Shown here: positions 1,462 to 13,214 of the stretch, in pieces
Layout: every line of letters begins with the position of its first letter
Position numbering within the stretch: position 1 is the stretch's first letter
DNA from: a virus
Taxonomy: Duplodnaviria > Heunggongvirae > Uroviricota > Caudoviricetes
Length of the DNA: 13,214 nucleotides
Direction: 5' to 3' (one strand)
IMG/VR virus record: IMGVR_UViG_3300029064_000011
Translations under genes and position numbers: made by a program
Notes under the pieces: generated by a model
The model's database searches: none
What the model was told of the DNA's origin: nothing
What the model saw: only the letters and a program-made list of their open reading frames with translations

Positions 1462-2062
1462 ATATGTCCTTTTATCACCACAGCAAGACAACCCATTGAT
1501 TTAATTAAACAACCCACACTGCAAAAAGTGCTAAAAACAGCAAATTGACTACACCATTAACTACACCGTTCGGTGCACTGTATGAAACAACGTGGAACAA
1601 ATAGACACAAGAAATATACAGGCGGGTAATCTTTCCAGGGGGAAGCGCACCAATTCATGAGGGGCGTTAATGTCGATATGGGGATCCCCATAACGGGGCT
1701 ACCGGATTTTTTTTCCGGTTAACTGTTAATCAGGCTGGTGGGTTTTACCTGTTCGGTAGGAGTTATGATTATCGTAATACCTTTCCCCCAGTGGGGTAAA
1801 AGCTCCAACCGTAACGATGTTCGTTGTGGTTGCCTTGATGGTCTGCGTGGTCATTATGACCATTCAGAATATGAAGGGTGACGCTTCCGACTTCCTCAAA
1901 TTGAGGTTTCCGAAAATATCAGCGGGTTAGCGATTAATCTGACCATTAATTAAACTACGAAAATTTCGTAGTTTGTGAATATATTCCGGCCTTCTGATTA
2001 ACAGTCCTCAGATGTGAGGGATGTAGCCAGCGCAATTTTGCGTTATCGGGAATATCAGCAAG

Positions 2063-2344
2063 TTACCGCCGCAGCCGTTCCGGCTTCTTCCAGTGGTACG
2101 TTATTTTTTCTTTCTCCCGATACAGTTCAACGCGGCGATTGTAGGCCAGCATTTCAAGAACGCGGTTCCGTATGTTGCGCATATCAACGCCATTAAGTTC
2201 TATACCATCACGGCGCATCACTTCCGCTACAACACGCACATAATTTTCAGCGGTCACGCTGTCCGGCTGTGTGGCCTGTTCGTCATGCTGCTGGCTGATT
2301 CCGGCGACGCGGCGGATTAATCCCAGTAGTTCGGCTTCTGTCAT
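2063..2344 (-). CDS. Hypothetical protein, 93 aa, last island gene next to the left junction
   Basis: ORF with GGGGG Shine-Dalgarno 5 nt upstream of ATG at 2344. No family recognised. The overlapping + strand ORFs 2014..2196 and 2093..2320 are treated as antisense artefacts. Confidence 0.5.
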   Translation of the reverse strand: MTEAELLGLIRRVAGISQQHDEQATQPDSVTAENYVRVVAEVMRRDGIELNGVDMRNIRNRVLEMLAYNRRVELYREKEKITYHWKKPERLRR

Positions 2345-2374
2345 TGTGCCCCCATCGCTCTGATAGTCTGGTGT

Positions 2375-2575
2375 CGTCGGGTCCTTCCTGGAATTATGGC
2401 CCGTTACGGGGCGGCGACCTCGCGGTTTTTATCTGTTTATGAGAATTTTCCGGCAAAAGTCAGATCCGATCTTCTTCTCTGTAACAGACTGTTTAACAAT
2501 GAAAATATTAAAAAAAGAAAGGATCTGACACGAGGCATTTTAGCCAGAAAATGCCATTATCAGATCCTTTCTCAT
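2375..2575 (+). other. Lambda-type cos site, copy A (cosQ-like, cosN, full cosB-like region), + strand orientation
   Basis: 2399-2453 reads cccgttacggggcggcgacctcgcggtttttatctgtttatgagaattttccgg, closely matching the lambda cos junction as I remember it. Cohesive-end 12-mer GGGCGGCGACCT at 2408-2419. Upstream cgggtccttcctgg resembles lambda cosQ. Downstream has ttcttcttc, aaaagaaagga and nested inverted repeats (AAAGGATCTGA 2516-2526 / TCAGATCCTTT 2561-2571 around GGCATTTT-agccag-AAAATGCC 2534-2555) that parallel the lambda cosB region. Confidence 0.8.
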
Positions 2576-2599
2576 TTTTGTTCAATAATTGCGCGTCTG

Positions 2600-3142
2600 T
2601 TACTCGCCTTTCTTCTGTAGCAACTTTTCCGGTACGTTTCCGGTTGTTTCTTTCAAGTAATCAGCCAGTATCTGTGGGAGGTTGTCGGCAACTCTGGCAC
2701 TGGCATTACAGGCTTTAACCACTTCCCTTTTAAGCCTGTCCAGCATGGCGGGGGTAATCTGTGGGAAGCTCCTTTGCATAGTAAGCGGGAGGCTGTCCAT
2801 GATTGATGAAATCTGACTCGCCAGCTTTGAAAGCGCGTACAGGCAAAACTCAGTATCAATCACGTCACCGCGATCGCGATCGTTTTTAAGTTCCTGCGCC
2901 TCTGCCTGTGCTGTCAGTAATCTGATCCTGACTCGTAAAAGTTCATCATCGTCAATCTCGCCTTTGTCGTTTATAAGCTGGCTAATTGCATTGTTAACCC
3001 TATTTTCTATCACGCTGGCAACATCATAAAACGCCTCACGGCCTTTACGCTCAACGGGAGTTACTCCCCACTTGTCGAACGCTGTCGCACTTACACGGCA
3101 GCTTTTCGCCATGTTTTTTTTGTTCATCAGATGAGATTTCAT
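2600..3142 (-). CDS. terS: Terminase small subunit, lambda Nu1-like, 180 aa
   Basis: Same length class as Nu1 (181 aa). Central and C-terminal segments (LTAQAEAQELKNDRD..., FCLYALSKLASQISSIMDSLPLTMQRSFP, LKREVVKACN) align with the Nu1 segments LTRAQADAQELKNARD, FCTFVLSRIAGEIASILDGLPLSVQRRFP, LKRDIIKAMN from memory. The N-terminal HTH region is more divergent. ATG at 3140-3142. Confidence 0.88.
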   Translation of the reverse strand: MKSHLMNKKNMAKSCRVSATAFDKWGVTPVERKGREAFYDVASVIENRVNNAISQLINDKGEIDDDELLRVRIRLLTAQAEAQELKNDRDRGDVIDTEFCLYALSKLASQISSIMDSLPLTMQRSFPQITPAMLDRLKREVVKACNASARVADNLPQILADYLKETTGNVPEKLLQKKGE

Positions 3143-3774: not shown

Positions 3775-4110
3775 TTATCGGGCCAGCGGCTGAACGGATA
3801 CGCCAGAACCCGCAAAGGCGGCGCATTTTTTCGCATCGGTGTCGACGCTCTCGGGCCAGTTCACGGCGGCGATATTAAAGATCCCCGTCTTGTAGCACTG
3901 TGCTGATTTCTGCTTTGACGTGTCCACGGGGTACGAAGTCAGATAAACAGCCTTTCCGGACGCCTGACCATCCCACGGCTTAAACTCGCCATTGTCCGCC
4001 AGCATCAGCGGGGTAAATTCCTGAATGACGCCAGCATCAGCGGCAAAATGTACCAGCGTCGTGGATACCTGCTGACTGCCTGCAAATAACTCAATGTATG
4101 GAGTGTTCAT
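3775..4110 (-). CDS. Head decoration protein, lambda gpD-like, 111 aa
   Basis: Motifs TPLMLAD, WDG, YKTGIF, NWPE and KKCAAFAGSG align with lambda gpD (TPLMLD, WDG, YKSGTF, WPE, KKRTAFAG) from memory. Similar length to gpD (110 aa). GGGGGA SD 5 nt upstream of the ATG. Confidence 0.8.
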   Translation of the reverse strand: MNTPYIELFAGSQQVSTTLVHFAADAGVIQEFTPLMLADNGEFKPWDGQASGKAVYLTSYPVDTSKQKSAQCYKTGIFNIAAVNWPESVDTDAKKCAAFAGSGVSVQPLAR

Positions 4111-4121
4111 AGAATCCCCCG

Positions 4122-5177
4122 TTAACCAATTTTGACGGTAACAAATTTGCGAATGTCTGCCGGCACCGGCTGCGGTGCGCTGTGCGTCTGCACGTACTCA
4201 ATCGCCGGATCGCCGTCCTCAATCCAGTTTTTCGGGTAGTACATGTTTTGCGTTGCGCCCGTTCTTACCGCTTCCTGATCCATAATCGCACCATAAGCAA
4301 CCAGCCCTTTATTGTTGGTGTTGCCCAAGACCAGCAAATCAGGCTCAAGGAAATGTTTTTCGGTGCCGTCGCTGTCGGCGTATTTGCCGGAATAGACGAT
4401 AAGGGCAATATCGCCCAGATAGCCTTTAAAGCTCACCACTTCGCCCAGGTTTTTACAGGCCAGTTCTGCGGCGGATTCTGAACCACGGGAAAGATCGTAC
4501 AGTTCGCGGAATTTTTTAAAGCTGCGTAACGTGCGCCATACCTCAGCGCCCATAATCATGACGTTTGCGGGGCAATTGCCCTGATCCGCATAAAGCTCGA
4601 TATCATAGATTGGATCGTGGGTTTCTTTGTCCTGCTCGGACCATTTACGGCCTTTGGCCTGCTCTATGATGTTGTTTTCCGGCATCTTCCAGTCGATTTC
4701 ATAGCGTTCTATGCCTTCGCCCTCAATGATGTTTTTTCCGGTCGTTACCGCATTTACCGCCAGCCATTCAACACGCGCTTTAATAGCGTTTACCTGGCGG
4801 CGCATGTTGCCAGTAATCAGGCGCATACGGCGATAGGTTGGGTCGTTAAGCTGTGCCGGATCTTCTCCAGCCATGCGCATGATGGTTTTTGTTGGATCGA
4901 TTTCGTGCTTTGGCTTCATGTAGCCAGGTTTAATCGTGCTGGTTTCGTACCCTTTATCGCGCTGTACCTGGCTACCAACCATAGGCGAGCAAAACGCTGA
5001 CATAGTGACTTCTTCGGTGTCCAGGTTATCCAGCATGATGTTTTGGGTGTTGAATGTCGCTACTTTCGGGAAAAACAGCGTGGTAAACAGCGGACTAAAT
5101 TTAAATTCCGCAATATCCCCGCGATTCAGGTACGCAAAAAGCTGGTGAGTGTTAAGTGCCGTTGCTTTGCCTGCCAT
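4122..5177 (-). CDS. Major capsid protein, lambda gpE-like, 351 aa
   Basis: Collinear similarity to lambda gpE over the full length as I remember it: FKFSPLF vs FKFDPLF, KPGYMKPKHEIDP vs TPGYVKPKHEVNP, DPTYRRMRLI vs DPAYRRRRII, WRTLRSFK vs WALFRSFK, SFKGYLGDIALIVYSGKY vs SYKGMYGDVAIVVYSGQY, YPKNWIEDGDPA vs YPKNWVTTGDPA. GGGGGTGA SD. Start overlaps the stop of the upstream 68-aa gene (TAATG). Confidence 0.92.
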   Translation of the reverse strand: MAGKATALNTHQLFAYLNRGDIAEFKFSPLFTTLFFPKVATFNTQNIMLDNLDTEEVTMSAFCSPMVGSQVQRDKGYETSTIKPGYMKPKHEIDPTKTIMRMAGEDPAQLNDPTYRRMRLITGNMRRQVNAIKARVEWLAVNAVTTGKNIIEGEGIERYEIDWKMPENNIIEQAKGRKWSEQDKETHDPIYDIELYADQGNCPANVMIMGAEVWRTLRSFKKFRELYDLSRGSESAAELACKNLGEVVSFKGYLGDIALIVYSGKYADSDGTEKHFLEPDLLVLGNTNNKGLVAYGAIMDQEAVRTGATQNMYYPKNWIEDGDPAIEYVQTHSAPQPVPADIRKFVTVKIG

Positions 5178-5383: not shown

Positions 5384-5418
5384 AGTAAGAAATTCCTCTT
5401 CGACTTAAAAAATCATAA

Positions 5419-5468
5419 CTGGATGTTCATCCAGCTCTGATTATAATCATGATTGCATTTTGTGCAAT
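5419..5468 (-). promoter_or_regulatory. Putative sigma70 promoter of the capsid operon with two overlapping palindromes
   Basis: On the minus strand: -35 TTGCAC (5462-5467), 16-nt spacer, perfect -10 TATAAT (5440-5445, inside the palindrome GATTATAATC). Palindrome ATTGCA-N5-TGCAAT (5452-5468) overlaps the -35. Palindrome CTGGATG-TT-CATCCAG (5419-5434) sits at the predicted start site. Confidence 0.45.
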
Positions 5469-5544
5469 GATATTGAGTTGTGTTGCAAATTATGAAATGA
5501 TTATCCCGATCATGTGTGTCAGTGCACCAAAAAGCCTCATATGC

Positions 5545-5586
5545 AAAAGCCCGATAAGCCACCTCTGACCTTATCGGGCTTTTTTA
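5545..5586 (+). terminator. Strong hairpin with flanking A and T runs (intrinsic terminator, mainly + direction)
   Basis: GCCCGATAAG (5549-5558), 11-nt loop, CTTATCGGGC (5570-5579), then TTTTTT. Preceded by AAAA, so weakly bidirectional. No annotated + strand gene upstream. Confidence 0.45.
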
Positions 5587-5760
5587 TCTGCCTGCAAAGA
5601 TGTCGAACAAAAATTAACCATAACCATCATCTTTTTTGCATCAAAACAATTAAAAACAATAAATTACGCTCATGATGATGATGACGATAAAATCACAAAA
5701 ATGCGCTTTTTTCCGCGCCTCCCGCCCCGTGTTCAGGCCCACCCCGCCAGGAGGCCCCGT

Positions 5761-5798: not shown

Positions 5799-6221
5799 TT
5801 AAAACGGTATGTTATCCCCGTACGGATCATCATTCCCCGCCTGTTGTTTTGCCCTGTTCAGCGCGTCAGTAGCCTGGCCCTGTTGACCTTTTTTGCCGCC
5901 CAGTCGCGCCGTTCGCGCACTGATTACACTGTCTGCGATAACCTGCCAGCCCTGCCGCGTTTCTCCGTTCTGCCCAGTCCACTGGCTGATCTGCATGTTA
6001 CCCGCCACGCTCAGGAGTTCACCCTTGCGGTGCCTTTCCAGTGCTTCGGCCTGTCTGCCAAATGCCAGGACGGATAACCACATCGTCGCCGTTCCGTCAT
6101 CTGCCTGGCTGCACGGAAGGGGGACCGCCATACGTGCCAGCGTCATTGGTGTGCCCTTGCTGGTCTGTTTTACCTGCGGGTCGTCCACCAGCCGCCCGTA
6201 AGCTGCTATCTGTGCTGTCAT
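5799..6221 (-). CDS. Single-stranded DNA-binding protein (SSB-like), 140 aa
   Basis: Short OB-fold-like N-terminal region, Gly/Gln-rich linker, and the acidic C-terminal tail ending DDPYGDNIPF, typical of bacterial and phage SSBs (DDDIPF). ATG overlaps the stop of the upstream gene (ATGA). Confidence 0.75.
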   Translation of the reverse strand: MTAQIAAYGRLVDDPQVKQTSKGTPMTLARMAVPLPCSQADDGTATMWLSVLAFGRQAEALERHRKGELLSVAGNMQISQWTGQNGETRQGWQVIADSVISARTARLGGKKGQQGQATDALNRAKQQAGNDDPYGDNIPF

Positions 6222-6784: not shown

Positions 6785-8539
6785 TTATAAAAACGCGTCG
6801 CACTCGTCTGTTGTTATTGCGTTAGTCTGCGTTACTCCCTTAACTTTCCGCGTAATATATTCATGTCCGTAAACTTTCGCGGCTGGCTTCATAGCCTTGC
6901 CAAAGTCATTTACGTTTAGCGGTTTGCTCCTGCCTGCGTACGCCATAAACGCCAGATAGACGCGGTAAAGGCTGTTTCTGGTCGTGTACTTCACTGAATC
7001 GCCACCGCCGCCCATCATCAGGCCGCGTGCTTCCTCCAGAAAATTCAGGAACTGGCAAAACTCAATAACCGGATCCGTCTGTTGCTTTATTGCCAGAGCT
7101 TCATCACCGTCACGCTGTTCCAGTAGTAAAGCCCGTGCCTTCTCAGGGTCGGTAAAGTTCGCCAGCAATCGGCGGATAATGACAGGGATTTCAGCCGCGA
7201 TCTTTTCCGGTAGCTCCCTGTCTTTTTCGGCCTCACTGACGATATTGTCGAAACGGAAAATCACGCGACGACGTGCCACACCTCCGGCCCGTTCGGTGAA
7301 TATCATCGGGTTATTGTTGGTCGCCAGCACCACCGCCCTGATTACCGCCGTGAAACGCTTTTCGTATTTCGGGTTAATTTCCACGGGGTCACCGCCCGTG
7401 ATTTTCTTGATGCCCGTTCCTTCGCCTGTATATTTCGGCTGGTCAGCCAGGACGATAAGACGACTCCCGACAACCTGCGCACGTCCACCAGCATCATCAA
7501 GCGATGTCATTTCAGCGCTTACCGTGTTCTGTTTCCCTGCCAGAAGGCTAGCTATGTGTGTGAATGTACTTTTACCGCTCCCGCCGTCTCCGGTGGCCTC
7601 AATAAACATCTGCCAGTCGTACCGGTTCGCCATAATCATGTACAGCGCGGCACATATACGCATCATCTTGCGCGGGTCTTTTCCGGCTGCGTGCTCAAGC
7701 CATTTATGAAAGTTTGGCGCGTTATCGCGGATGTTCTCCCCTGGTGCTGGTGGCGTGTACTCAATGCCGTTGTGCGTGGTGATCCAGTTCTCCGGCGTGT
7801 GCGGGGAAAATTCCCCCGTTTTCAGGTCAAGCGCACCATTGGCGAACGGCAACAAATCGCCGGACGGCTCGCCCATTGGTTCGGCAATAACTTTTAACGC
7901 TTCCACGGCGTTATTGATTACGCGCTTGCTGAAAGTGGCCCTGTGCTCTGAATAGATCGCCACCATTTCGCGGCTAAGTTCCATTGTGCTGACCGGACAC
8001 CATACCCCGCCGCGCCATACGTGAACGATTTCACTTTCAGGATGTACGCAAACGCCATCAAAGCGATCGGCAAGCAGCTGCGCGCGCTCACTGTCCGCCA
8101 TCTGCGAAAGTTGCGCCTTTTGCTTTACCGGAAGCTCAATGACCAGACCATCAGAAAGATTCTGGCGCTCACGGGCCAGATATTCGCGCCAGTTCTCCAC
8201 CTTCTGACCGTGCATACCATCAGGGTAAAAATTTGCATCCTGTACGCCTGCCGCCGCCAGCTTCTGACCAATCGCCTTTATCATTACTGGCGCAAGATAT
8301 CCGGCCCTGAATATGCGCACGGATTTTCTGCCTTCCGGCACAATTTGCAGCTTATCCAGTTCGGATAACTGCTGCTCCCCAAGCCACACAGGAGTCTCAT
8401 TATCTCCGGCCATACGCGCGTCATGTTCCTGCCATTGTTTTGCGTGTGACCAGGCATCACTACCCGCAAAAATAATGACTTCTGTTTCTTTGTGTTTTAT
8501 GCCGCGTGACTGCTGTTTTACGTTCGGTGCCAGTTTCAT
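6785..8539 (-). CDS. Primase-helicase replication initiator (P4-family phage/plasmid primase C-terminal domain with D5-like NTPase), 584 aa
   Basis: Walker A TGDGGSGKST and Walker B-like RLIVLADQ in the C-terminal half. Domain order and size are typical of satellite pri-rep proteins. Origin iterons directly downstream. Start overlaps the upstream 99-aa ORF. Confidence 0.88.
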   Translation of the reverse strand: MKLAPNVKQQSRGIKHKETEVIIFAGSDAWSHAKQWQEHDARMAGDNETPVWLGEQQLSELDKLQIVPEGRKSVRIFRAGYLAPVMIKAIGQKLAAAGVQDANFYPDGMHGQKVENWREYLARERQNLSDGLVIELPVKQKAQLSQMADSERAQLLADRFDGVCVHPESEIVHVWRGGVWCPVSTMELSREMVAIYSEHRATFSKRVINNAVEALKVIAEPMGEPSGDLLPFANGALDLKTGEFSPHTPENWITTHNGIEYTPPAPGENIRDNAPNFHKWLEHAAGKDPRKMMRICAALYMIMANRYDWQMFIEATGDGGSGKSTFTHIASLLAGKQNTVSAEMTSLDDAGGRAQVVGSRLIVLADQPKYTGEGTGIKKITGGDPVEINPKYEKRFTAVIRAVVLATNNNPMIFTERAGGVARRRVIFRFDNIVSEAEKDRELPEKIAAEIPVIIRRLLANFTDPEKARALLLEQRDGDEALAIKQQTDPVIEFCQFLNFLEEARGLMMGGGGDSVKYTTRNSLYRVYLAFMAYAGRSKPLNVNDFGKAMKPAAKVYGHEYITRKVKGVTQTNAITTDECDAFL

Positions 8540-9074: not shown

Positions 9075-9300
9075 GGCTTACATCCTCAGGAAATTTTCTT
9101 CTATAACGCGCCTCTGCCACATATTCCGCATAATCGGCGGCGATATTCAGTACATCAAGCCCCGTTGATTTATATTCTCTCGTGGAAAGTAAGAAAAAAG
9201 CCGCTCTAATAAGTTCTGGCATTGACGAAAGCGCATCAGCCGCATCATCAGGAACGCCGGAAAATTCCTGTTTCAGGGAATTAAAACGATCATCACGCAT
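9067..9300 (-). CDS. Hypothetical protein, 77 aa
   Basis: ORF with AGGGGGG SD. 3' end overlaps the next gene by 8 nt. Confidence 0.5.
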   Translation of the reverse strand: MRDDRFNSLKQEFSGVPDDAADALSSMPELIRAAFFLLSTREYKSTGLDVLNIAADYAEYVAEARYRRKFPEDVSHA

Positions 9301-9658
9301 GTTTACCCCCCTGAATGACCTGATAACCGCAACTGGTCAGCAACTCGATAAATTCCGGCAGTGTGCCGAAACAGCAATCATCACGCAGCCGTTCACAGGA
9401 TACCTCGACGCCGTTTTCGTAGTGACTCACCATACATCCGGTAAAATGCAGATCATCATCGTGATGGCTCGTTGACGGCTTAATCAGTCGCGCACGTTCC
9501 GCCAGTTCCAGCAATGCTTCAACGCTTCCGGCAATTGCACCATCCGGCAGGTGATAATTACGCACTATGCGCCCGTTCTCCACATTGACCAGCAACTGCC
9601 CGGTAAATTTCTCATCAAACTGAATGCTGTTAAGGTCAGAAATTGACAGATTATGCAT
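9293..9658 (-). CDS. Hypothetical protein, about 121 aa (second ATG of the ORF chosen)
   Basis: ORF track gives 9293..9676, but the ATG at 9656-9658 is preceded by AGGAGG at optimal spacing (start MHNLSIS...). Confidence 0.5.
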   Translation of the reverse strand: MHNLSISDLNSIQFDEKFTGQLLVNVENGRIVRNYHLPDGAIAGSVEALLELAERARLIKPSTSHHDDDLHFTGCMVSHYENGVEVSCERLRDDCCFGTLPEFIELLTSCGYQVIQGGKHA

Positions 9659-9875
9659 GGTGCACCTCCTGCACATCAGCCATGATAATTTTTCCGGCCT
9701 TATCCAGTGCCTGATCGGCTTTTAGCTGCACAAATGCTAAATAATGGAAGATGCATTCTGATTCTCTGGCTGCGTGTTTATGCGCCCTGTCAGCAATAAC
9801 AGAAATATCAATAAGCGCGTGCATCAGCGTAGTGAGCGCGGCGGCGGCTGCGTCCGGTGTGGTTTTATTGCACAT
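9651..9875 (-). CDS. Hypothetical protein, about 74 aa (internal start of ORF 9651..9929)
   Basis: GGAGGGG SD precedes the ATG at 9873-9875 (start MCNKTTPD...). The longer upstream extension lacks an SD. Confidence 0.4.
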   Translation of the reverse strand: MCNKTTPDAAAAALTTLMHALIDISVIADRAHKHAARESECIFHYLAFVQLKADQALDKAGKIIMADVQEVHHA

Positions 9876-10095
9876 GTACCCCTCCGCATTTTTTTTCGTT
9901 AGAAATAAGCGTTCTTCTTTCCTGTTCATCGCTCAGGAATACGCAGACCTCACCGCTAAGGCGTTTAAGTAAGCCGATGATTGCCCCTGATTCGCTGTCG
10001 GTCATCATGCCAGGGTAATCCTCTGCCAGTGCGCAAATAACTTCGATTTGGTGGGCGCGTTCTGCTGCCTGTTGTAGTGTGATTTCCTGGCTCAT
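9865..10095 (-). CDS. Hypothetical protein, 76 aa
   Basis: ORF with GGGGGTAGG SD. Its ATG overlaps the stop of the upstream 66-codon reading frame (ATGA). Confidence 0.45.
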   Translation of the reverse strand: MSQEITLQQAAERAHQIEVICALAEDYPGMMTDSESGAIIGLLKRLSGEVCVFLSDEQERRTLISNEKKCGGVHVQ

Positions 10096-10292
10096 AAGCC
10101 TACCCCCTGACGAATACGGGCAGCAAATACCATCACGCAGCCAGCCGGAGATTGCTGGCGTGCTTCCTGTTCGCTGGTGGCCTCAATGGTAATCACGCGC
10201 GGTTGTGCCGTGCTCAGGGCGATAAAACGCCAGATGTATTTATTCAGGTTGTGCGAGTCCCGCCCTTGCGGGTGTGTGGTATGATTTCTCAT
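10092..10292 (-). CDS. Hypothetical protein, 66 aa, candidate first gene of the leftward operon
   Basis: ATG at 10290-10292 preceded by GAGGTAG. Stop overlaps the start of the 76-aa gene. This is the C-terminal in-frame part of the 428-codon ORF 10092..11378. Starts about 95 bp from the operator cluster. Confidence 0.4.
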   Translation of the reverse strand: MRNHTTHPQGRDSHNLNKYIWRFIALSTAQPRVITIEATSEQEARQQSPAGCVMVFAARIRQGVGL

Positions 10293-11378
10293 AGCTACCT
10301 CGATACTTTCGCTATCGTTGGTGGTTAGAAGCCCGGTTAGTGTTAGCGCACTGCCGGGTTTCGTCGTTTCTGCACCTTGCGCCAACAAGGTGTTGAACAC
10401 CAATTTAAACCCAGGTGTTAAACACGTCAAGTGTTGAACACTTATTTTTTTTCCTGCATACTGCATTTGTTTTTTATGAGGGGTACACCACATGGCGACA
10501 AAAGCGGTAAACGCAAAATCACAAACCGTTGCGGCAAGGGTTCCGCATGAAGTTATGAACAATGTTGAGGCGGTAAAAATGCCTGGCGAAAGTACGGGGC
10601 AATTTGTTACTGCGGCATTAAAACGAGAAGTTGAATATCGCCAGCGGCGCAAGGCCAAAGAACCAGAGTAATCACCATCAGCGCCGTGGTGTAAGGTATT
10701 ACGGCGCATTGCTATGCAGGACAACACAATGACCGATAAAGAATTGACCAAAACATTATCACCGGCACGGAAAAGACGGCGCAGAAAGATAGAGCATGAA
10801 TCAGAAAGATTCGCGCCATGTGCTTTTGCCCTTGAGCAATTCCTTAAAGAGTACAGGGAAAAGCGCTCATTGCAGGTATGGCAACGAACTGAACCAGACT
10901 GATTGCATTGCCCACCAGCCGCAAATGTGGCATTGTTGGCAATGCTCATGCGTTGGGGATAACGTGTAGCTTGTGTCGAGGGGCCACCGTAGCGGGTGGC
11001 CTTTGTTTTGCCCGTTATTCGGCAATTGTGGCGCTTCTCCACATGGTTGATATAATCCCACTGCTCAGATTCATTTTTTGCGCAGTAGGTTAATTGTTCA
11101 CAAAGGCGCTCCGGCAACGGGGCGCTTTTTGTTTTTATTAGTTTGTAGAAACCTGACTCAGAGATAATGCTCATATTCTGATTGCCGTCAGGGGTGTAAG
11201 TTAAATTTACTCCCTTTTTATCATCAAACATCTGCAACGCTCTGGCGTTAACAATATTGGTTTCACTCCCGCCAGTAAGGCCGGAAATAACCGGAATAAT
11301 TTCGGCAAAATTTTGCAGATTCTGTTTTTCAGGACGAACGAAGCCCCGCCCTTGTTCGGGAGAATATCCAGTATTCAT
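10092..11378 (-). CDS. 428-codon ORF, probably not one real gene; N-terminal roughly 115 codons resemble a BRO-N/antirepressor-like domain, the middle overlaps the + strand RHH cassette
   Basis: N-terminal part contains ISESGFYKLIKTKSAP, reminiscent of the BRO-N motif I-E-G-LY-LI-S-P. The rest has skewed Cys/Ser/Thr-rich composition and runs antisense through operators, the RHH gene and two + strand terminators. Weak SD at the 11378 ATG. Confidence 0.25.
   Translation of the reverse strand: MNTGYSPEQGRGFVRPEKQNLQNFAEIIPVISGLTGGSETNIVNARALQMFDDKKGVNLTYTPDGNQNMSIISESGFYKLIKTKSAPLPERLCEQLTYCAKNESEQWDYINHVEKRHNCRITGKTKATRYGGPSTQATRYPQRMSIANNATFAAGGQCNQSGSVRCHTCNERFSLYSLRNCSRAKAHGANLSDSCSIFLRRLFRAGDNVLVNSLSVIVLSCIAMRRNTLHHGADGDYSGSLALRRWRYSTSRFNAAVTNCPVLSPGIFTASTLFITSCGTLAATVCDFAFTAFVAMWCTPHKKQMQYAGKKISVQHLTCLTPGFKLVFNTLLAQGAETTKPGSALTLTGLLTTNDSESIEVAMRNHTTHPQGRDSHNLNKYIWRFIALSTAQPRVITIEATSEQEARQQSPAGCVMVFAARIRQGVGL
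10388..10442. promoter_or_regulatory. Three palindromic operator-like sites in a divergent promoter region
   Basis: GGTGTT-G-AACACC (10388-10400), GTGTT-A-AACAC (10414-10424) and AAGTGTT-G-AACACTT (10428-10442). The third overlaps a candidate rightward promoter: -35 TTGAAC (10433-10438), 17-nt spacer, -10 CATACT (10456-10461). Confidence 0.6.
10491..10670 (+). CDS. Ribbon-helix-helix (Arc/CopG-like) DNA-binding protein, 59 aa
   Basis: Not in the ORF track because it is under 60 aa; translated by hand as MATKAVNAKSQTVAARVPHEVMNNVEAVKMPGESTGQFVTAALKREVEYRQRRKAKEPE. The N-terminal strand-like RVPHEV followed by two helices is the classic RHH pattern. GAGGGG SD. The operator cluster lies immediately upstream. 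Confidence 0.6.
10714..10902 (+). CDS. Small, very basic hypothetical protein (58-62 aa), second gene of the + strand cassette
   Basis: ORF track entry 10714..10902. An AGGA SD favours the second ATG at 10729 (MTDKELTK...). Contains an RKRRRRK tract. Followed by an intrinsic terminator. Confidence 0.4.
   Translation: MQDNTMTDKELTKTLSPARKRRRRKIEHESERFAPCAFALEQFLKEYREKRSLQVWQRTEPD
10982..11009 (+). terminator. Rho-independent terminator of the + strand RHH cassette
   Basis: GGCCACC-gtagcg-GGTGGCC hairpin (10982-11001) followed by TTTGTTTT. Confidence 0.55.
11106..11136 (+). terminator. Second + strand rho-independent terminator
   Basis: GCGCTCCG-GCAA-CGGGGCGC hairpin (8 bp including one G-U pair, GNRA-like tetraloop) followed by TTTTTGTTTTT. 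Confidence 0.55.
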
Positions 11379-11430: not shown

Positions 11431-11619
11431 TTAGTGAACTGCCTCGCAGCTGTCCTTCCATGCCAGAACTTCGGATAAAGACCAGCCAACGGAACGACCG
11501 CCCAGCTTACGCCGTGATGGGAATTGTCCGGCTTTTTCCAGGCGGTACCGACATGAGCGGCTCAGGCCTGTAAGTTGCTGACATTCTTTTTCACGTATAA
11601 AGCGATCTGTGCTTAACAC
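11431..11619 (-). CDS. alpA: AlpA-family transcriptional regulator (excisionase-like HTH), 62 aa, GTG start
   Basis: Pattern LTGLSRSCRYRLEKAGQFPSRRKLGGRSVGWSLSEVLAW fits the Phage_AlpA family (TG-SR-T-Y, FP-P-LG-RSVGW, E-W). AAGGGGGAA SD 4-5 nt upstream of the GTG. Positioned next to the integrase as in PICIs and P4-like islands. Confidence 0.8.
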   Translation of the reverse strand: MLSTDRFIREKECQQLTGLSRSCRYRLEKAGQFPSRRKLGGRSVGWSLSEVLAWKDSCEAVH

Positions 11620-11900
11620 AATTCCCCCTTTGTTGTTTCTTAAAGAGTCATTGGGTGGATTATTGGGTTGGGTTGTGTCGGATTGTGTCAGGGTGTTTGT
11701 GGAATGGCAAACACTGGCGGCGGTCGTTTTACAGAAGCAGGGGGAATGAGAATAAAAACTCTTTTAATTCATTATGATGCAAAGGCATAAAATTTTACTT
11801 TTACGCCTTTTTTACATATTTTTAAGAGTGATTCGCCAGTGTATAAAAAAACAGTACACCTATAAAAATCAAATGGTTATTACGATGGCTGATTTTTAAC

Positions 11901-11960
11901 CCGTTGTTCCATTTTGTTCCTTGTTGTTCGTCGTTGTGTCTCGTTGTTTCACGTTGTCCG
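11901..11960. repeat. Six tandem 10-bp direct repeats (consensus TCGTTGTTYC) between int and alpA
   Basis: Perfectly phased units ccgttgttcc, attttgttcc, ttgttgttcg, tcgttgtgtc, tcgttgtttc, acgttgtccg. A related GT-rich pair (gggttgtgtc, ggattgtgtc) lies at about 11667-11686. Confidence 0.55.
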
Positions 11961-11984
11961 CATCCTGAAAAATCGCAAAAAAAA

Positions 11985-13214
11985 TTATATTTCTCTGGCT
12001 ATTGGCAATGTGGTTACGTTTTCATGTGTTCCCGCCAGTATCCCTAACCGCTCCGTCCACATATCCAGCGCGTCACGTTTCGCATCCAGATAACGGGAAT
12101 GGTTATAGACTCGTTGCATCCCTGGCATCTGATGACCTGTAAGCTGCTCCACGACGTGAGGATCCACGCCTAAATCGTTCAGCATCGTTGTAAAGGTGCG
12201 CCGGATGTCATGCAGTGACCAGTGAGGGTGTTTTAGCCTCCTGTGCGCTAATCTGCCGTACTGCGACACGCTTGTTTCCTGTTTCACTTCCCCCAGCAAT
12301 AAGCCCGTGTGCCTGTTCTGCTCCACCAGCTGCGTGACGAACGGCAGTATTGCTTCCGGTATGGGCCGGAATATTGCCACCTTCGTTTTGCTGTGTTCTT
12401 TCGGCACGGTCCAGAGCATTTCGGTAAAATCCCACTCGCTGATCTCCGATAACCTCAGTTCTACCGTCCGGCATCCGAAAACAATCAGGAGGCGGATTAG
12501 TGCGACGTAGTAAGGGGAAAATATTTTTTTGTCCAGTGCCTGCAATAATTCGCCAAGTTCTTTGGTGCTTAAGACACGCTCGCTTATATCCGGTTTTTTC
12601 CCAACGTCCGCCACACTCATATCATCAAGAACGTTGCTGATTGCATAGCGCCGCCTCCGGCAGAACTTAAGCGCCTGTTTGCACGTCTGTAGCAAGAATC
12701 CGGCAGTAACAGGCGTTCGCTTTGCCACCTGGTCAAAACAGGCCAGCCAGTGCCGTAGCTCGCATTTATCCAGCGGCATAGCACCAATGTGCTGTATTAC
12801 GTGATTATTAAGGCGCTTTTTCAGGGCGGCATAATCCACGCGGTTTTCCTTTACGTAAGACTCAAGCCAGTAGGTAAGCGCATCGCCAACCGTTACGGGC
12901 TTTAACGCTTTCTGTACGGTGTAATTCATCTCATGACGTGGATTTTTCCCCTCAGCAAGCCAAGCGCGACACTGTGCCGCTTTTTCCCTGGCAGCTTTCA
13001 GACTCAGATCAGGATAATTTCCCAGCTTAATCCGTTCCGGTCGTGCTCCCCTTCCCGTTCCGGCCCTGTAGGTGAAATACCAGGTTAAAAGGCCGCTGGT
13101 TGAATGCCTGACGCTCAGGTTTCCACCGTCATTAAGAAAGGCTGTTTTTTGGGCGGGTGTGCCGTTGATTTTCCTCAGCTGTGTATCGCTCAGTTTGTTA
13201 AGTGCTCTGCTCAT
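11985..13214 (-). CDS. int: Tyrosine recombinase, P4-type integrase, 409 aa; start codon at the last window base
   Basis: N-terminal arm-binding domain pattern (LSDTQLRK, NDGGNLSV, WYFTYR, LGNYPDLSLKAAREK) typical of P4-like integrases. C-terminal catalytic motifs HDIRRTF and RVYNHSRY. The N-terminal pattern suggests the ATG at 13212-13214 is the true start. Confidence 0.93.
   Translation of the reverse strand: MSRALNKLSDTQLRKINGTPAQKTAFLNDGGNLSVRHSTSGLLTWYFTYRAGTGRGARPERIKLGNYPDLSLKAAREKAAQCRAWLAEGKNPRHEMNYTVQKALKPVTVGDALTYWLESYVKENRVDYAALKKRLNNHVIQHIGAMPLDKCELRHWLACFDQVAKRTPVTAGFLLQTCKQALKFCRRRRYAISNVLDDMSVADVGKKPDISERVLSTKELGELLQALDKKIFSPYYVALIRLLIVFGCRTVELRLSEISEWDFTEMLWTVPKEHSKTKVAIFRPIPEAILPFVTQLVEQNRHTGLLLGEVKQETSVSQYGRLAHRRLKHPHWSLHDIRRTFTTMLNDLGVDPHVVEQLTGHQMPGMQRVYNHSRYLDAKRDALDMWTERLGILAGTHENVTTLPIAREI

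What the first reader, a model, noticed from the sequence alone, without database searches (positions are those of the whole stretch)
10092..11378. 428-codon minus-strand ORF that runs antisense through the RHH cassette, operators and terminators
The annotated ORF is unlikely to be one protein. Its first ~115 codons look protein-like with a BRO-N/antirepressor-like motif, and its last 66 codons form a plausible coupled gene with its own SD. The middle has odd composition and overlaps well-supported + strand features. A stop-free frame of this length is statistically unusual, so it may reflect an ancestral gene disrupted by the cassette, or genuine overlapping coding.
Basis: partly seen in the sequence, partly recalled or inferred. 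Interest (0 to 1): 0.5.

Follow-up and report, generated by a model that had tools for sequence, protein, structure and literature searches.

The report
Read-through ORF spanning a satellite's immunity switch
The 428-codon ORF is real and is kept open by selection, probably so that ribosomes cover the transcript running from alpA into the replication genes of a phage satellite; its peptide is not conserved, and it hides a candidate repressor cassette and a candidate antisense RNA on the opposite strand.

Summary
The ORF (10092..11378, minus strand, 428 codons) exists and is far longer than chance allows (0 of 20,000 simulations). It lies in the "Bro zone" of a Gram-negative PICI satellite, between alpA and the primase operon. 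Its last 66 codons are an Icd/Kil-family gene with its own start. Only about 40 N-terminal residues derive from a BRO-N gene. The middle matches no protein family and runs antisense through two real plus-strand genes, three operators, two promoters and two terminators.

In 71 distinct homologous alpA-to-icd intervals, stops number 17 / 1185 / 974 in the three frames. Leader lengths differ only by multiples of 3. ylcI never uses the synonymous codons that would create an antisense stop (0 of 165, 50 expected). Yet the peptide shows no codon periodicity.

So openness is selected and sequence is not. This matches phage P4's nested eta/kil genes, where translating eta lets the upstream-promoter transcript escape immunity-dependent termination. 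Here the P4 immunity RNA is replaced by an antisense protein cassette with type-specific operators, plus a candidate cis-antisense sRNA over the icd ribosome-binding site.

This is a new variant of a known kind.

The parts
10092..11378 (-). Long read-through ORF (428 codons), the counterpart of P4 eta. It bridges alpA to the icd-primase operon.
   Evidence: Searches show the ORF. Searches show the homologous interval is stop-free in this frame in most of 71 distinct variants (17/1185/974 stops by frame). One search gives chance as 0 of 20,000.
10092..10292 (-). Nested Icd/Kil-family gene (66 aa), in frame, with its own GAGG Shine-Dalgarno and ATG.
   Evidence: NF033153 scores 69.9 bits against a cut-off of 25. 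P4 Kil scores 73.1 bits on the same model. Coding periodicity is 0.07/0.11/0.22. PGAP annotates it separately. The 66-aa protein occurs on more than 1000 contigs.
11136..11255 (-). BRO-N remnant (ORF residues 42-81): an internal fragment of a BRO-N domain fused into the frame.
   Evidence: 61% identity to residues 57-97 of the intact BRO-N gene of L028, which scores 71.9 bits on Pfam BRO-N. The window ORF scores only 14.2 bits against a gathering score of 25.6. PGAP calls it a pseudogene fragment.
11431..11619 (-). alpA (Phage_AlpA), the upstream gene whose transcript and ribosomes feed the long ORF.
   Evidence: Pfam PF05930 scores 65.8 bits. In 29 of 46 fully open relatives the first in-frame start lies 4-11 nt after the alpA stop. 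AlpA activates its own promoter and downstream genes in EcCICFT073 (PMC6092414).
11682..11710 (-). Promoter-like site upstream of alpA, a candidate analogue of P4 PLL.
   Evidence: Consensus scan only: TTGCCA-17-CACAAT with TG. Not otherwise tested.
10492..10671 (+). YlcI/YnfO-family gene (59 aa), a candidate immunity repressor, embedded antisense in the ORF.
   Evidence: NF041551 scores 59.7 bits. The family alignment is clean with invariant positions. Coding periodicity in its own frame is 0.65/0.39/1.02, and it is the best conserved of the six frames. The RHH fold is not confirmed.
10714..10902 (+). Second small plus-strand gene (ORF62). The true start is probably the ATG at 10729.
   Evidence: phrog_21027, E 1.6e-15, aligned from residue 6. 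AGGA lies 8 nt before 10729 (read). Variable sites are in excess at its third codon position, 20/15/32 by position in the long-ORF frame.
10390..10441 (.). Three operator copies, GTG-N5-CAC, at 10390-10400, 10415-10425 and 10431-10441.
   Evidence: One search found the repeats. Searches show the core is type-specific and repeated within each locus: 14 of 19 types have a second copy at the same place, against 10 of 278 in cross-type controls.
10402..10430 (-). Internal leftward promoter, the analogue of P4 PLE: -35 TTGACG, 17-nt spacer, -10 TAAATT. It is flanked and overlapped by the operators.
   Evidence: consensus scan. The TTGAC/TTGAA -35 element sits at the same position in the different ylcI types listed, and TTGAC itself occurs on the icd strand in 45 of 58 distinct leaders.
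10434..10462 (+). Candidate ylcI promoter: -35 TTGAAC, 17-nt spacer, -10 CATACT. It overlaps operator 10431-10441.
   Evidence: Read from the sequence. The -10 (…CAGTATAC… on the icd strand) is conserved across types. This is an inference.
10277..10372 (+). Candidate cis-antisense sRNA with its promoter: extended -10 TGgTATGAT at 10277-10285, start near 10292, two stem-loops, U-rich tail. It is complementary to the icd Shine-Dalgarno, ATG and leader.
   Evidence: Sub-threshold Rfam SymR hit at 10293-10365, 33.3 bits, E 6e-4. MFE -36.5 kcal/mol, z -4.95. Nine pairs show compensatory changes. 60 G.U cells against 1 A.C cell, and 97% paired as plus-strand RNA against 85% as minus-strand RNA.
10979..11012 (+). 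Plus-strand intrinsic terminator after ORF62. The long ORF reads through it in antisense.
   Evidence: 10-bp GC-rich stem followed by UUUGUUUUG.
11102..11139 (+). Second plus-strand terminator-like hairpin, translated as …KSAPLPERL… in the ORF.
   Evidence: The same segment lies downstream of the intact BRO-N gene in L028.
9865..10095 (-). Next gene of the operon. Its ATG overlaps the icd stop (ATGA), and the chain of overlapping genes continues to the primase (6785-8539).
   Evidence: Searches give the coordinates. phrog_1478. Primase TIGR01613.

Best explanation
The ORF is the PICI counterpart of phage P4's eta gene. It is a long reading frame that starts just after alpA, runs through the element's immunity/control region, and ends in frame with the small toxic Icd/Kil gene.

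What selection maintains is ribosome passage, not the peptide.

Proposed quiescent state (inferred):
- The plus-strand YlcI-type protein binds three type-specific operators and shuts the internal leftward promoter.
- A short plus-strand antisense RNA covers the icd ribosome-binding site, so leaky transcripts stay untranslated and are terminated by Rho.

Proposed induced state (inferred):
- A helper phage switches on alpA, and transcription from the alpA promoter enters the region.
- Ribosomes coupled from alpA translate the long ORF across the antisense cassette, operators and leader.
- This shields the pyrimidine-rich antisense RNA from Rho and opens the sRNA-targeted leader, so expression reaches icd and the tightly coupled replication genes regardless of immunity.

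Shown here:
- the anatomy;
- family membership of Icd/Kil, YlcI and AlpA;
- selection for openness without peptide conservation;
- type-specific operator sets;
- strand-specific covariation of the sRNA structure.

Inferred, not shown: translation itself, the role of Rho, repressor activity of YlcI, and expression of the sRNA.
For: 1. Layout shared with P4. P4 has a 214-codon ORF that overlaps the end of its alpA homologue ORF88 and ends in Kil, 65 aa. Kil and the window's C-terminus both pass the same Icd-like model, 73.1 and 69.9 bits against a cut-off of 25. P4's CI RNA and seqA lie inside that ORF. PMC10111431 states that eta translation from the upstream late promoter prevents termination, that eta is coupled to the alpA homologue, and that PICIs have an equivalent Bro zone.

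2. Island type. The window is a four-zone Gram-negative PICI: int and alpA, then this ORF, then primase and SSB, then capsid E, decoration protein D and Nu1-like terminase.

3. Openness is selected.
- 160 loci were chosen on Icd alone; in most, the frame stays open for 240-411 codons upstream of icd.
- Of 71 distinct alpA-icd intervals, 46 have 0 stops in the icd frame, 13 have 1, 2 have 2, 7 carry the long ORF in a shifted frame and only 3 lack it. Totals are 17/1185/974 by frame.
- Leader lengths are 190, 193, 196, 199 and 205 nt in 68 of 77 distinct leaders. The 9 exceptions are the loci with a broken frame.
- A column-resampling null expects 1.25 frame-0 stops per leader and 0 are seen, while frames 1 and 2 match the null.
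- ylcI never places a T-ending codon before His or Gln: 0 of 165 against 50.5 expected.

4. The peptide is not selected. Entropy by codon position is flat in the leader (0.76/0.71/0.72). Variable sites by codon position are 4/8/6 in the N-terminal part and 17/13/16 in the distal part, against 17/19/32 in icd.

5. A fusion protein is not required. In the frameshifted L070 lineage the long ORF is still open for about 400 codons and stops 22 nt before the icd ATG.

6. Coupling. The first start codon lies 4-11 nt after the alpA stop in 29 of 46 fully open intervals. All downstream genes overlap or abut through to the primase.

7. Rho background. Rho suppresses antisense transcription, translating ribosomes shield RNA from Rho, and sRNA binding at a ribosome-binding site causes polarity (PMC12360218). 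The minus-strand RNA here has C/G 1.2 and is up to 68% pyrimidine, against 0.79 and 43% for the primase mRNA.

8. The arrangement also occurs in Klebsiella, where YlcI is only 39% identical and the antisense frame is open for 349 codons.
Against: - There is no expression, ribosome-profiling or proteomic data. Translation is inferred from evolutionary signatures only.
- The loci are related and mosaic, so the statistical counts overstate independence.
- The Icd anchor restricted the main sample to 92% identity or more.
- In the window the ORF start is 52 nt from the alpA stop, has an in-frame stop 5 codons upstream, and has only a weak Shine-Dalgarno, so coupling is looser here than in many relatives.
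- Three of 71 intervals have no long ORF. Several Xenorhabdus and Pectobacterium loci have only 91-174 open codons.
- Direct BLASTP of the window ORF against P4 Eta is insignificant, E 0.65. Homology rests on the family HMM and on synteny.
- The P4 mechanism is taken from a secondary source and from memory, because the primary paper could not be retrieved.
- The C-over-G bias is modest.
- Convergent transcription and two plus-strand terminators inside the ORF could hinder read-through.
Confidence: 0.65

Rival explanations
1. It encodes a genuine 47-kDa multi-domain protein of the 'Bro network' type, with an N-terminal module, a linker and a C-terminal Icd domain, and the polypeptide itself is the functional product.
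For: NCBI holds this exact 428-aa sequence, and hundreds of proteins of 270-430 aa, named Icd-like protein. The frame is conserved. PMC10111431 treats such genes as Bro-network protein genes.
Against: The middle matches no family. There is no third-position excess in the leader, distal or N-terminal parts. N-termini are unrelated between variants, and only a 40-residue BRO-N fragment remains here. The L070 lineage keeps the ORF open but out of frame with icd. Where the frame overlaps ylcI, the YlcI translation is the better conserved one.
Confidence: 0.1
2. The long frame is an untranslated by-product. It would be a relic of an ancestral BRO-N/Ant gene into which the plus-strand cassette inserted, or a chance or compositional effect of lying antisense to coding DNA, which gene callers then report as a spurious ORF.
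For: A BRO-N remnant is present, and PGAP calls it a pseudogene. The antisense of ylcI and ORF62 alone would be open with probability 0.35 and 0.79. Wobble positions of the two strands coincide, which is permissive.
Against: The non-coding parts are the improbable ones, 0.024 and 0.0002. The frame is open with unrelated cassettes or none. Leader indels are multiples of 3. Frame-0 stops are specifically missing against a column-resampling null. ylcI avoids stop-creating synonymous codons, 0 of 165.
Confidence: 0.07
3. The frame is kept open for translational coupling only. Ribosomes arriving from upstream would unfold or reach the occluded icd start, bypassing the sRNA and structure block, and protection from Rho would play no part.
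For: The sRNA candidate and the leader hairpins cover the icd Shine-Dalgarno. In the L070 lineage the long ORF ends 22 nt before the icd ATG, an arrangement typical of termination-reinitiation.
Against: Coupling to icd would need only a short upstream ORF, not 240-410 codons open all the way back to alpA. By the secondary account, the P4 precedent involves termination. This rival overlaps the best explanation rather than excluding it.
Confidence: 0.15

Closest known systems
Phage P4 nested eta/kil genes in the PLL/PLE left operon (Forti et al. 1999, J Bacteriol 181:5225; cited through PMC10111431)
   Same: A long ORF starts at the end of the alpA homologue (ORF88). It runs through the immunity region and an internal promoter, and ends in frame with a gene of about 65 aa from the Icd/Kil family, followed by the primase operon. 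The interval is stop-free in that frame, 0/6/2. Translation from the upstream promoter makes read-through insensitive to immunity.
   Different: P4's immunity device inside eta is a same-strand RNA system, CI plus seqA (Rfam C4 and IsrK). The window has no such RNA. It carries instead an antisense two-gene protein cassette with three operators, two plus-strand terminators and a candidate cis-antisense sRNA. The ORF is twice as long, its start is not overlapped with alpA here, and pairwise sequence similarity to Eta is insignificant.
'Bro zone' genes of Gram-negative PICIs and HE-PICIs (PMC10111431)
   Same: The position is the same, between the Integration zone (int, alpA) and the Replication zone (primase, SSB), in a λ-capsid-type PICI. 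BRO-N-derived segments and module swapping are present.
   Different: In the sections read here, that paper describes these genes as domain-swapping proteins and reports C4/IsrK-type RNAs in some of them. Those sections do not mention an antisense-embedded YlcI cassette, type-specific operators, or selection for openness without peptide conservation.
Phage P1 immI operon (c4 antisense RNA - icd - ant). This comparison is from my own knowledge.
   Same: A small Icd-family cell-division inhibitor whose translation is controlled by an antisense RNA, with polarity on downstream genes, and an association with antirepressor/BRO-type sequences.
   Different: In P1, c4 is encoded upstream on the same strand and acts in trans on sites in the leader. 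Here the candidate RNA is a true cis-antisense transcript. The downstream genes are replication genes, not ant.
SymR/SymE-type cis-antisense control of a toxic gene (Rfam RF01809)
   Same: The geometry matches: a structured RNA of about 80 nt that starts at the toxin's start codon on the opposite strand and covers its Shine-Dalgarno and leader, with two stem-loops and a U tail.
   Different: The score of 33.3 bits is well below the gathering score of 61, so it is not a family member by Rfam's criterion. The target is Icd/Kil, not SymE.

Membership tests
P4 eta/kil-type nested read-through ORF | A long ORF on the same strand as, and immediately downstream of, the alpA/ORF88 homologue, coupled to it. 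| tested here: met
   alpA is at 11431-11619 and the ORF starts at 11378, a 52-nt gap. In 29 of 46 fully open relatives the first start codon lies 4-11 nt after the alpA stop. In P4 the ORF overlaps the ORF88 stop.
P4 eta/kil-type nested read-through ORF | A C-terminal, in-frame nested gene of about 65 aa from the Kil/Icd family, with its own start. | tested here: met
   NF033153 scores 69.9 bits for the window and 73.1 bits for P4 Kil, against a cut-off of 25. GAGG lies 5 nt before the ATG at 10292.
P4 eta/kil-type nested read-through ORF | A constitutive promoter internal to the long ORF, upstream of kil (PLE). | tested here: inconclusive
   TTGACG-17-TAAATT lies at 10430-10402. The -35 element (TTGAC or TTGAA) sits at the same position across the operator types listed; TTGAC itself is present in 45 of 58 distinct leaders. 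No transcript data are available.
P4 eta/kil-type nested read-through ORF | Immunity RNA CI and its targets seqA/seqB inside the ORF (Rfam C4, IsrK). | tested here: not met
   There is no C4 or IsrK hit in the window, even at E up to 10. P4 as positive control gives 74.9 and 60.8 bits.
P4 eta/kil-type nested read-through ORF | Translation of the long ORF suppresses Rho-dependent termination, so the upstream-promoter transcript reads through. | not testable with these tools
   Only indirect signs are available: selection for openness without peptide conservation and a C>G, pyrimidine-rich antisense RNA.
P4 eta/kil-type nested read-through ORF | Followed by the replication (P4-family primase) operon. 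| tested here: met
   A chain of overlapping genes runs from 10095 down to the primase at 6785-8539. TIGR01613 scores 109.1 bits against a cut-off of 108.7.
BRO-N domain protein (Pfam PF02498) | A complete BRO-N domain scoring above the Pfam gathering threshold. | tested here: not met
   The score is 14.2 bits against 25.6, covering profile positions 37-85 of 96 only. Only residues 42-81 align to an intact BRO-N protein, which itself scores 71.9 bits.
Gram-negative PICI (EcCICFT073 type) | The order int - alpA - (Bro zone) - primase/SSB - phage-like late genes, in an island of about 11 kb in a chromosomal site. | tested here: met
   int 11985-13214, alpA, primase, SSB 5799-6221, capsid E 4122-5177, decoration protein D 3775-4110, Nu1-like terminase 2600-3142, with phoQ flanking. 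The same island lies next to roxA and pepT in strain NCTC86.
   There is no Pfam RHH hit and no PDB sequence hit. The AF2 monomer has helices 19-28 and 35-56 at pLDDT 80 but no strand. Foldseek against the PDB finds nothing significant. One UniRef label reads 'CopG-like RHH'. Type-specific operators support DNA binding by something encoded locally.
SymR antitoxin RNA (Rfam RF01809) | A score at or above the Rfam gathering threshold. | tested here: not met
   33.3 bits against 61. The resemblance is in geometry and structure only.

The most novel reading that the evidence does not exclude
Both strands of about 400 bp are translated. A repressor operon (ylcI and ORF62) is embedded antisense inside a read-through ORF of more than 1 kb, and the ORF's only selected property is ribosome coverage, to the point that it dictates synonymous codon choice in the repressor gene. 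Together with type-specific operators and a cis-antisense sRNA over the icd start, this would be the hitherto 'unclear' repression and immunity system of Gram-negative PICIs. It would have stayed hidden because annotation pipelines call the whole region as one 'Icd-like' protein, and because these islands were described as transcribed unidirectionally.
Probability: 0.4. Interest if true: 0.75.

Novelty: new variant of a known kind. Interest (0 to 1): 0.62.

Why it matters
- It gives a concrete, testable example of an ORF maintained for the act of translation rather than for its product. The evolutionary fingerprint is clean: frame conserved, peptide free, and synonymous constraint imposed on the gene on the other strand.
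- It points to a candidate master repressor, an operator set and an antisense RNA in Gram-negative PICIs. [quoted passage not shown]
- It explains inconsistent database annotation: products of 66 aa and of 270-430 aa are both named 'Icd-like', and BRO-N 'pseudogenes' are called in the same place.
- It links PICIs to P4 by a fourth shared element, the Kil/Icd gene nested in an eta-like ORF. PMC6092414 recognised only distant homology for Int, AlpA and the primase.

Tried and rejected
- Rfam at gathering thresholds found nothing in the window. The permissive search gave only a sub-threshold SymR hit and noise.
- C4/IsrK-type immunity RNAs were sought in the window and in 17 related loci. They were found only in P4 and, downstream of icd, in L144.
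- tblastn of Icd against 50,697 phage records did not hit P4. BLASTP of the window ORF against P4 Eta was insignificant. The relationship showed up only with the NCBIfam profile.
- Counting gap-run lengths in a forced multiple alignment of leaders gave 6/10/9 (mod 3). I rejected this as an artefact of aligning non-homologous segments and replaced it with anchor-to-anchor distances.
- Whole-interval clustering was too coarse because of mosaicism.
- The PDB sequence search and the Foldseek search for YlcI were uninformative.
- Forti et al. 1999 (PMC94026) is not held.
- The EcCIMP1 paper did not bear on this region.
- Pfam, NCBIfam and PHROGs gave nothing for the 247-codon middle.
- I did not predict the structure of the full 428-aa product. 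A single-sequence model would be uninformative, and the available homologues are DNA-level relatives.
Full report
OBSERVATION. It runs antisense through these features:
- a YlcI/YnfO-family gene at 10492-10671 (+), NF041551, 59.7 bits;
- a second small gene at 10714-10902 (+), phrog_21027. The profile aligns from residue 6 and AGGA precedes the ATG at 10729, so that ATG is the likelier start;
- three copies of GTGTTGAACAC at 10390-10441;
- two plus-strand hairpin + T-tract terminators at about 10979-11012 and 11102-11139.

The last 66 codons score 69.9 bits on the Icd-like model NF033153, cut-off 25. Residues about 50-90 give only a sub-threshold BRO-N match, 14.2 against 25.6 bits. The 247 codons in between match nothing in Pfam, NCBIfam or PHROGs.

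A null model resampled synonymous codons in the two plus-strand genes and dinucleotide-shuffled everything else. It shows the two genes explain little: probability of being stop-free is 0.35 and 0.79 for them, 0.024 for the 199-nt leader and 0.0002 for the distal part. All parts were open together in 0 of 20,000 runs. Stop trimers between the alpA stop and the icd ATG fall 1/23/21 by frame.

CONTEXT. The window starts in phoQ and then holds an island of about 11 kb with this order: integrase (11985-13214), AlpA (11431-11619), this ORF, a chain of small overlapping genes, a P4-family primase (6785-8539), SSB, then λ-like capsid E, decoration protein D and a Nu1-like small terminase. This is the four-zone layout (Integration, Bro, Replication, Late) described for Gram-negative PICIs (PMC10111431).

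A 99.6%-identical copy in E. coli NCTC86 is annotated by PGAP as three things: a 68-aa Icd-like gene, the plus-strand YlcI gene, and a 'BRO-N pseudogene, missing C-terminus'. Yet NCBI also holds this exact 428-aa product, and hundreds of 270-430-aa relatives, as 'host cell division inhibitor Icd-like protein'. The 66-aa version occurs on more than 1000 contigs. Some part of the region is found in 1735 of 5426 complete E. coli genomes.

THE KEY COMPARATIVE RESULT. To avoid choosing loci by ORF length, I fetched 160 loci anchored only on the 66-aa Icd protein.
- The Icd frame stays open for 240-411 codons upstream in most of them. That includes loci whose YlcI homologue is only 34-60% identical, and loci with no detectable homologue.
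- Among 71 distinct alpA-stop-to-icd-ATG intervals of 1300 nt or less, 46 have no stop at all in the Icd frame, 13 have one, 2 have two, 7 carry the long ORF in a shifted frame, and 3 have none. Summed stops are 17 / 1185 / 974 for the three frames over 51.8 kb.
- The distance from the icd ATG to the divergent ylcI ATG takes the values 190, 193, 196, 199 or 205 nt in 68 of 77 distinct leaders. The 9 exceptions are exactly the loci with a broken frame.
- A column-resampling null keeps each site's base frequencies. It predicts the observed stops in frames 1 and 2 (4.4 against 4.6, and 6.6 against 6.7 per leader) but predicts 1.25 in frame 0, where none occurs. This used 36 distinct leaders with median identity 56%.
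- Inside ylcI, an antisense stop can arise only if a T-ending codon precedes His or Gln. That happens 0 times in 165 opportunities against 50.5 expected, and every Tyr is preceded by Glu, which cannot create a stop.
- The arrangement recurs in Klebsiella (YlcI 39% identical; 349 open codons ending in an Icd-like C-terminus). It recurs in part in Xenorhabdus.

THE PEPTIDE IS NOT CONSERVED.
- Entropy at codon positions 1/2/3 is 0.07/0.11/0.22 for icd, which is normal for coding sequence. It is flat in the leader (0.76/0.71/0.72).
- In the ylcI segment the periodicity belongs to the ylcI frame (0.65/0.39/1.02). YlcI is the best conserved of the six translations, 60% against 55% for the antisense frame, which shares its wobble position.
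- Variable sites by codon position are 4/8/6 in the N-terminal part and 17/13/16 in the distal non-coding part.
- N-termini differ completely between variants.
- The window's 'BRO-N' part is a 40-residue internal fragment (ORF residues 42-81). It is 61% identical to residues 57-97 of an intact BRO-N gene that sits in the same place in L028 and scores 71.9 bits on Pfam BRO-N.
- In the L070 lineage a 1-nt insertion puts the long ORF out of frame with icd. It is still open for about 400 codons and stops 22 nt before the icd ATG.

What is conserved is therefore ribosome coverage of the interval, not a fusion protein.

WHAT IT IS. This is the anatomy of phage P4's nested eta/kil genes.
- In P4 (NC_001609) a 214-codon ORF overlaps the end of ORF88, the alpA homologue, and ends with Kil, 65 aa.
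- Kil scores 73.1 bits on the same Icd-like model.
- The ORF88-to-kil interval has 0/6/2 stops by frame.
- P4's CI RNA and seqA lie inside the ORF (Rfam C4 74.9 bits, IsrK 60.8 bits).

PMC10111431 summarises Forti et al. 1999 as follows. The promoter internal to eta gives a transcript that terminates early under CI-RNA immunity. Kil is translated on read-through. Full-length Eta is translated only from the upstream late promoter and is coupled to the alpA homologue. 'Eta translation prevents termination'. I could not retrieve the primary paper.

Established background fits this account. Rho suppresses antisense and untranslated transcription, ribosomes shield RNA from Rho, and sRNA binding at a ribosome-binding site causes polarity (PMC12360218). 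In EcCICFT073, AlpA activates its own promoter and the downstream genes, and helper phages induce alpA (PMC6092414).

WHAT DIFFERS FROM P4. The window has no C4/IsrK-type RNA. The control region inside the ORF is a protein-based, divergently transcribed cassette.

Across ylcI types the leader keeps one scaffold: the ylcI -10, an A-run, a -35 TTGAC/A, an 11-mer GTG-N5-CAC abutting the -35, a -10, and a second copy 22-35 nt downstream, often with a third copy about 45 nt upstream. The 5-nt core is type-specific and is the same at the sites within a locus. 14 of 19 types have the second copy, against 10 of 278 in cross-type controls. That is the signature of repressor/operator immunity types.

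CANDIDATE ANTISENSE RNA. Directly antisense to the icd Shine-Dalgarno, ATG and leader lies a candidate plus-strand sRNA of about 80 nt at 10292-10372.
- An extended -10 (TGgTATGAT, 10277-10285) places its start next to the icd ATG.
- Rfam gives a sub-threshold SymR-like hit, 33.3 bits, E 6e-4.
- It folds at -36.5 kcal/mol, z = -4.95.
- The second stem-loop has 9 pairs with compensatory changes across at least 6 sequence types, and a T-rich tail follows it.
- The structure is selected on the plus strand: 60 G.U cells against 1 A.C cell, and 97% pairing as plus-strand RNA against 85% as minus-strand RNA.

MECHANISM (INFERRED). In the quiescent state the YlcI-type repressor closes the internal leftward promoter. 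The antisense RNA keeps any leaky icd leader untranslated and therefore Rho-sensitive. On induction, alpA-promoter transcripts enter the region with ribosomes coupled from alpA. Translating the long ORF protects the pyrimidine-rich antisense RNA from Rho. Its C/G ratio is 1.2 and it reaches 68% pyrimidine, against 0.79 and 43% for the primase mRNA. Translation also opens the sRNA-targeted leader and delivers ribosomes to icd and to the chain of overlapping replication genes.

CAVEATS.
- There are no expression data.
- The loci are related and mosaic, so P-values overstate independence.
- The main sample is limited to Icd identity of 92% or more.
- In the window itself, coupling to alpA is looser than in many relatives: a 52-nt gap and a weak Shine-Dalgarno.
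- A few variants lack the long ORF.
- Promoters are supported only by consensus and conservation.

VERDICT. The feature is a new variant of a known kind, a P4 eta/kil-type read-through ORF in a PICI whose internal immunity device has been replaced by an antisense protein cassette and a cis-antisense RNA.

Noticed in passing
window 10277-10372 (+): A candidate cis-antisense sRNA of about 80 nt covers the icd Shine-Dalgarno, ATG and leader. It has an extended -10, a sub-threshold SymR-like Rfam hit, two stem-loops, compensatory changes, and a strong G.U strand asymmetry that favours the plus strand.
   Followed up: yes
window 10390-10441; leaders of L018-L177: The operator cores (GTG-N5-CAC) are type-specific, repeated two or three times per locus, and co-vary with the adjacent YlcI type. 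This suggests immunity types and a hidden repressor in Gram-negative PICIs, which were described as transcribed unidirectionally with no clear repressor.
   Followed up: yes
window 10714-10902 (+): ORF62 (phrog_21027, unknown function, with a basic RKRRRRK patch) probably starts at the ATG at 10729 rather than at 10714. Its role beside YlcI is unknown.
   Followed up: partly
window 9293-10095 (-) and on to 6785: Every gene from icd to the primase overlaps or abuts the next one (for example, ATGA at 10092-10095). Apart from the 52-nt gap after the alpA stop, the 428-codon ORF fills what would otherwise be the only long untranslated stretch of the alpA-to-primase transcript.
   Followed up: partly
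L144:3352-3439 (+): One related locus has a full-score C4 antisense RNA (73.1 bits) downstream of icd rather than upstream. This placement differs from P4.
   Followed up: no
L159:109-176 (+): The Rfam family 'int-alpA RNA' (RF02996) is found in one related locus. It is not found in the window's int-alpA spacer (11620-11984).
   Followed up: no
window 5400-5700: A sharp G+C trough (0.35) lies between the SSB gene and the capsid module. It could be the replication origin or a module junction.
   Followed up: no
window 1462-2600: The stretch between the end of phoQ and the Nu1-like terminase gene holds only short ORFs. It presumably contains the island's end and attachment site, but I did not examine it.
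   Followed up: no
L070 group (about 13 of 160 loci): A recurrent lineage carries a 1-nt insertion in the leader hairpin. It shifts the long ORF out of frame with icd, and the ORF then ends 22 nt before the icd ATG. It is too frequent to be a sequencing error.
   Followed up: partly
public protein databases: The same locus is annotated inconsistently: as a 66-67-aa Icd-like protein, as 134-430-aa 'Icd-like' proteins, as 'ash family protein', or as BRO-N pseudogenes. The long calls hide the plus-strand YlcI gene in some records.
   Followed up: partly
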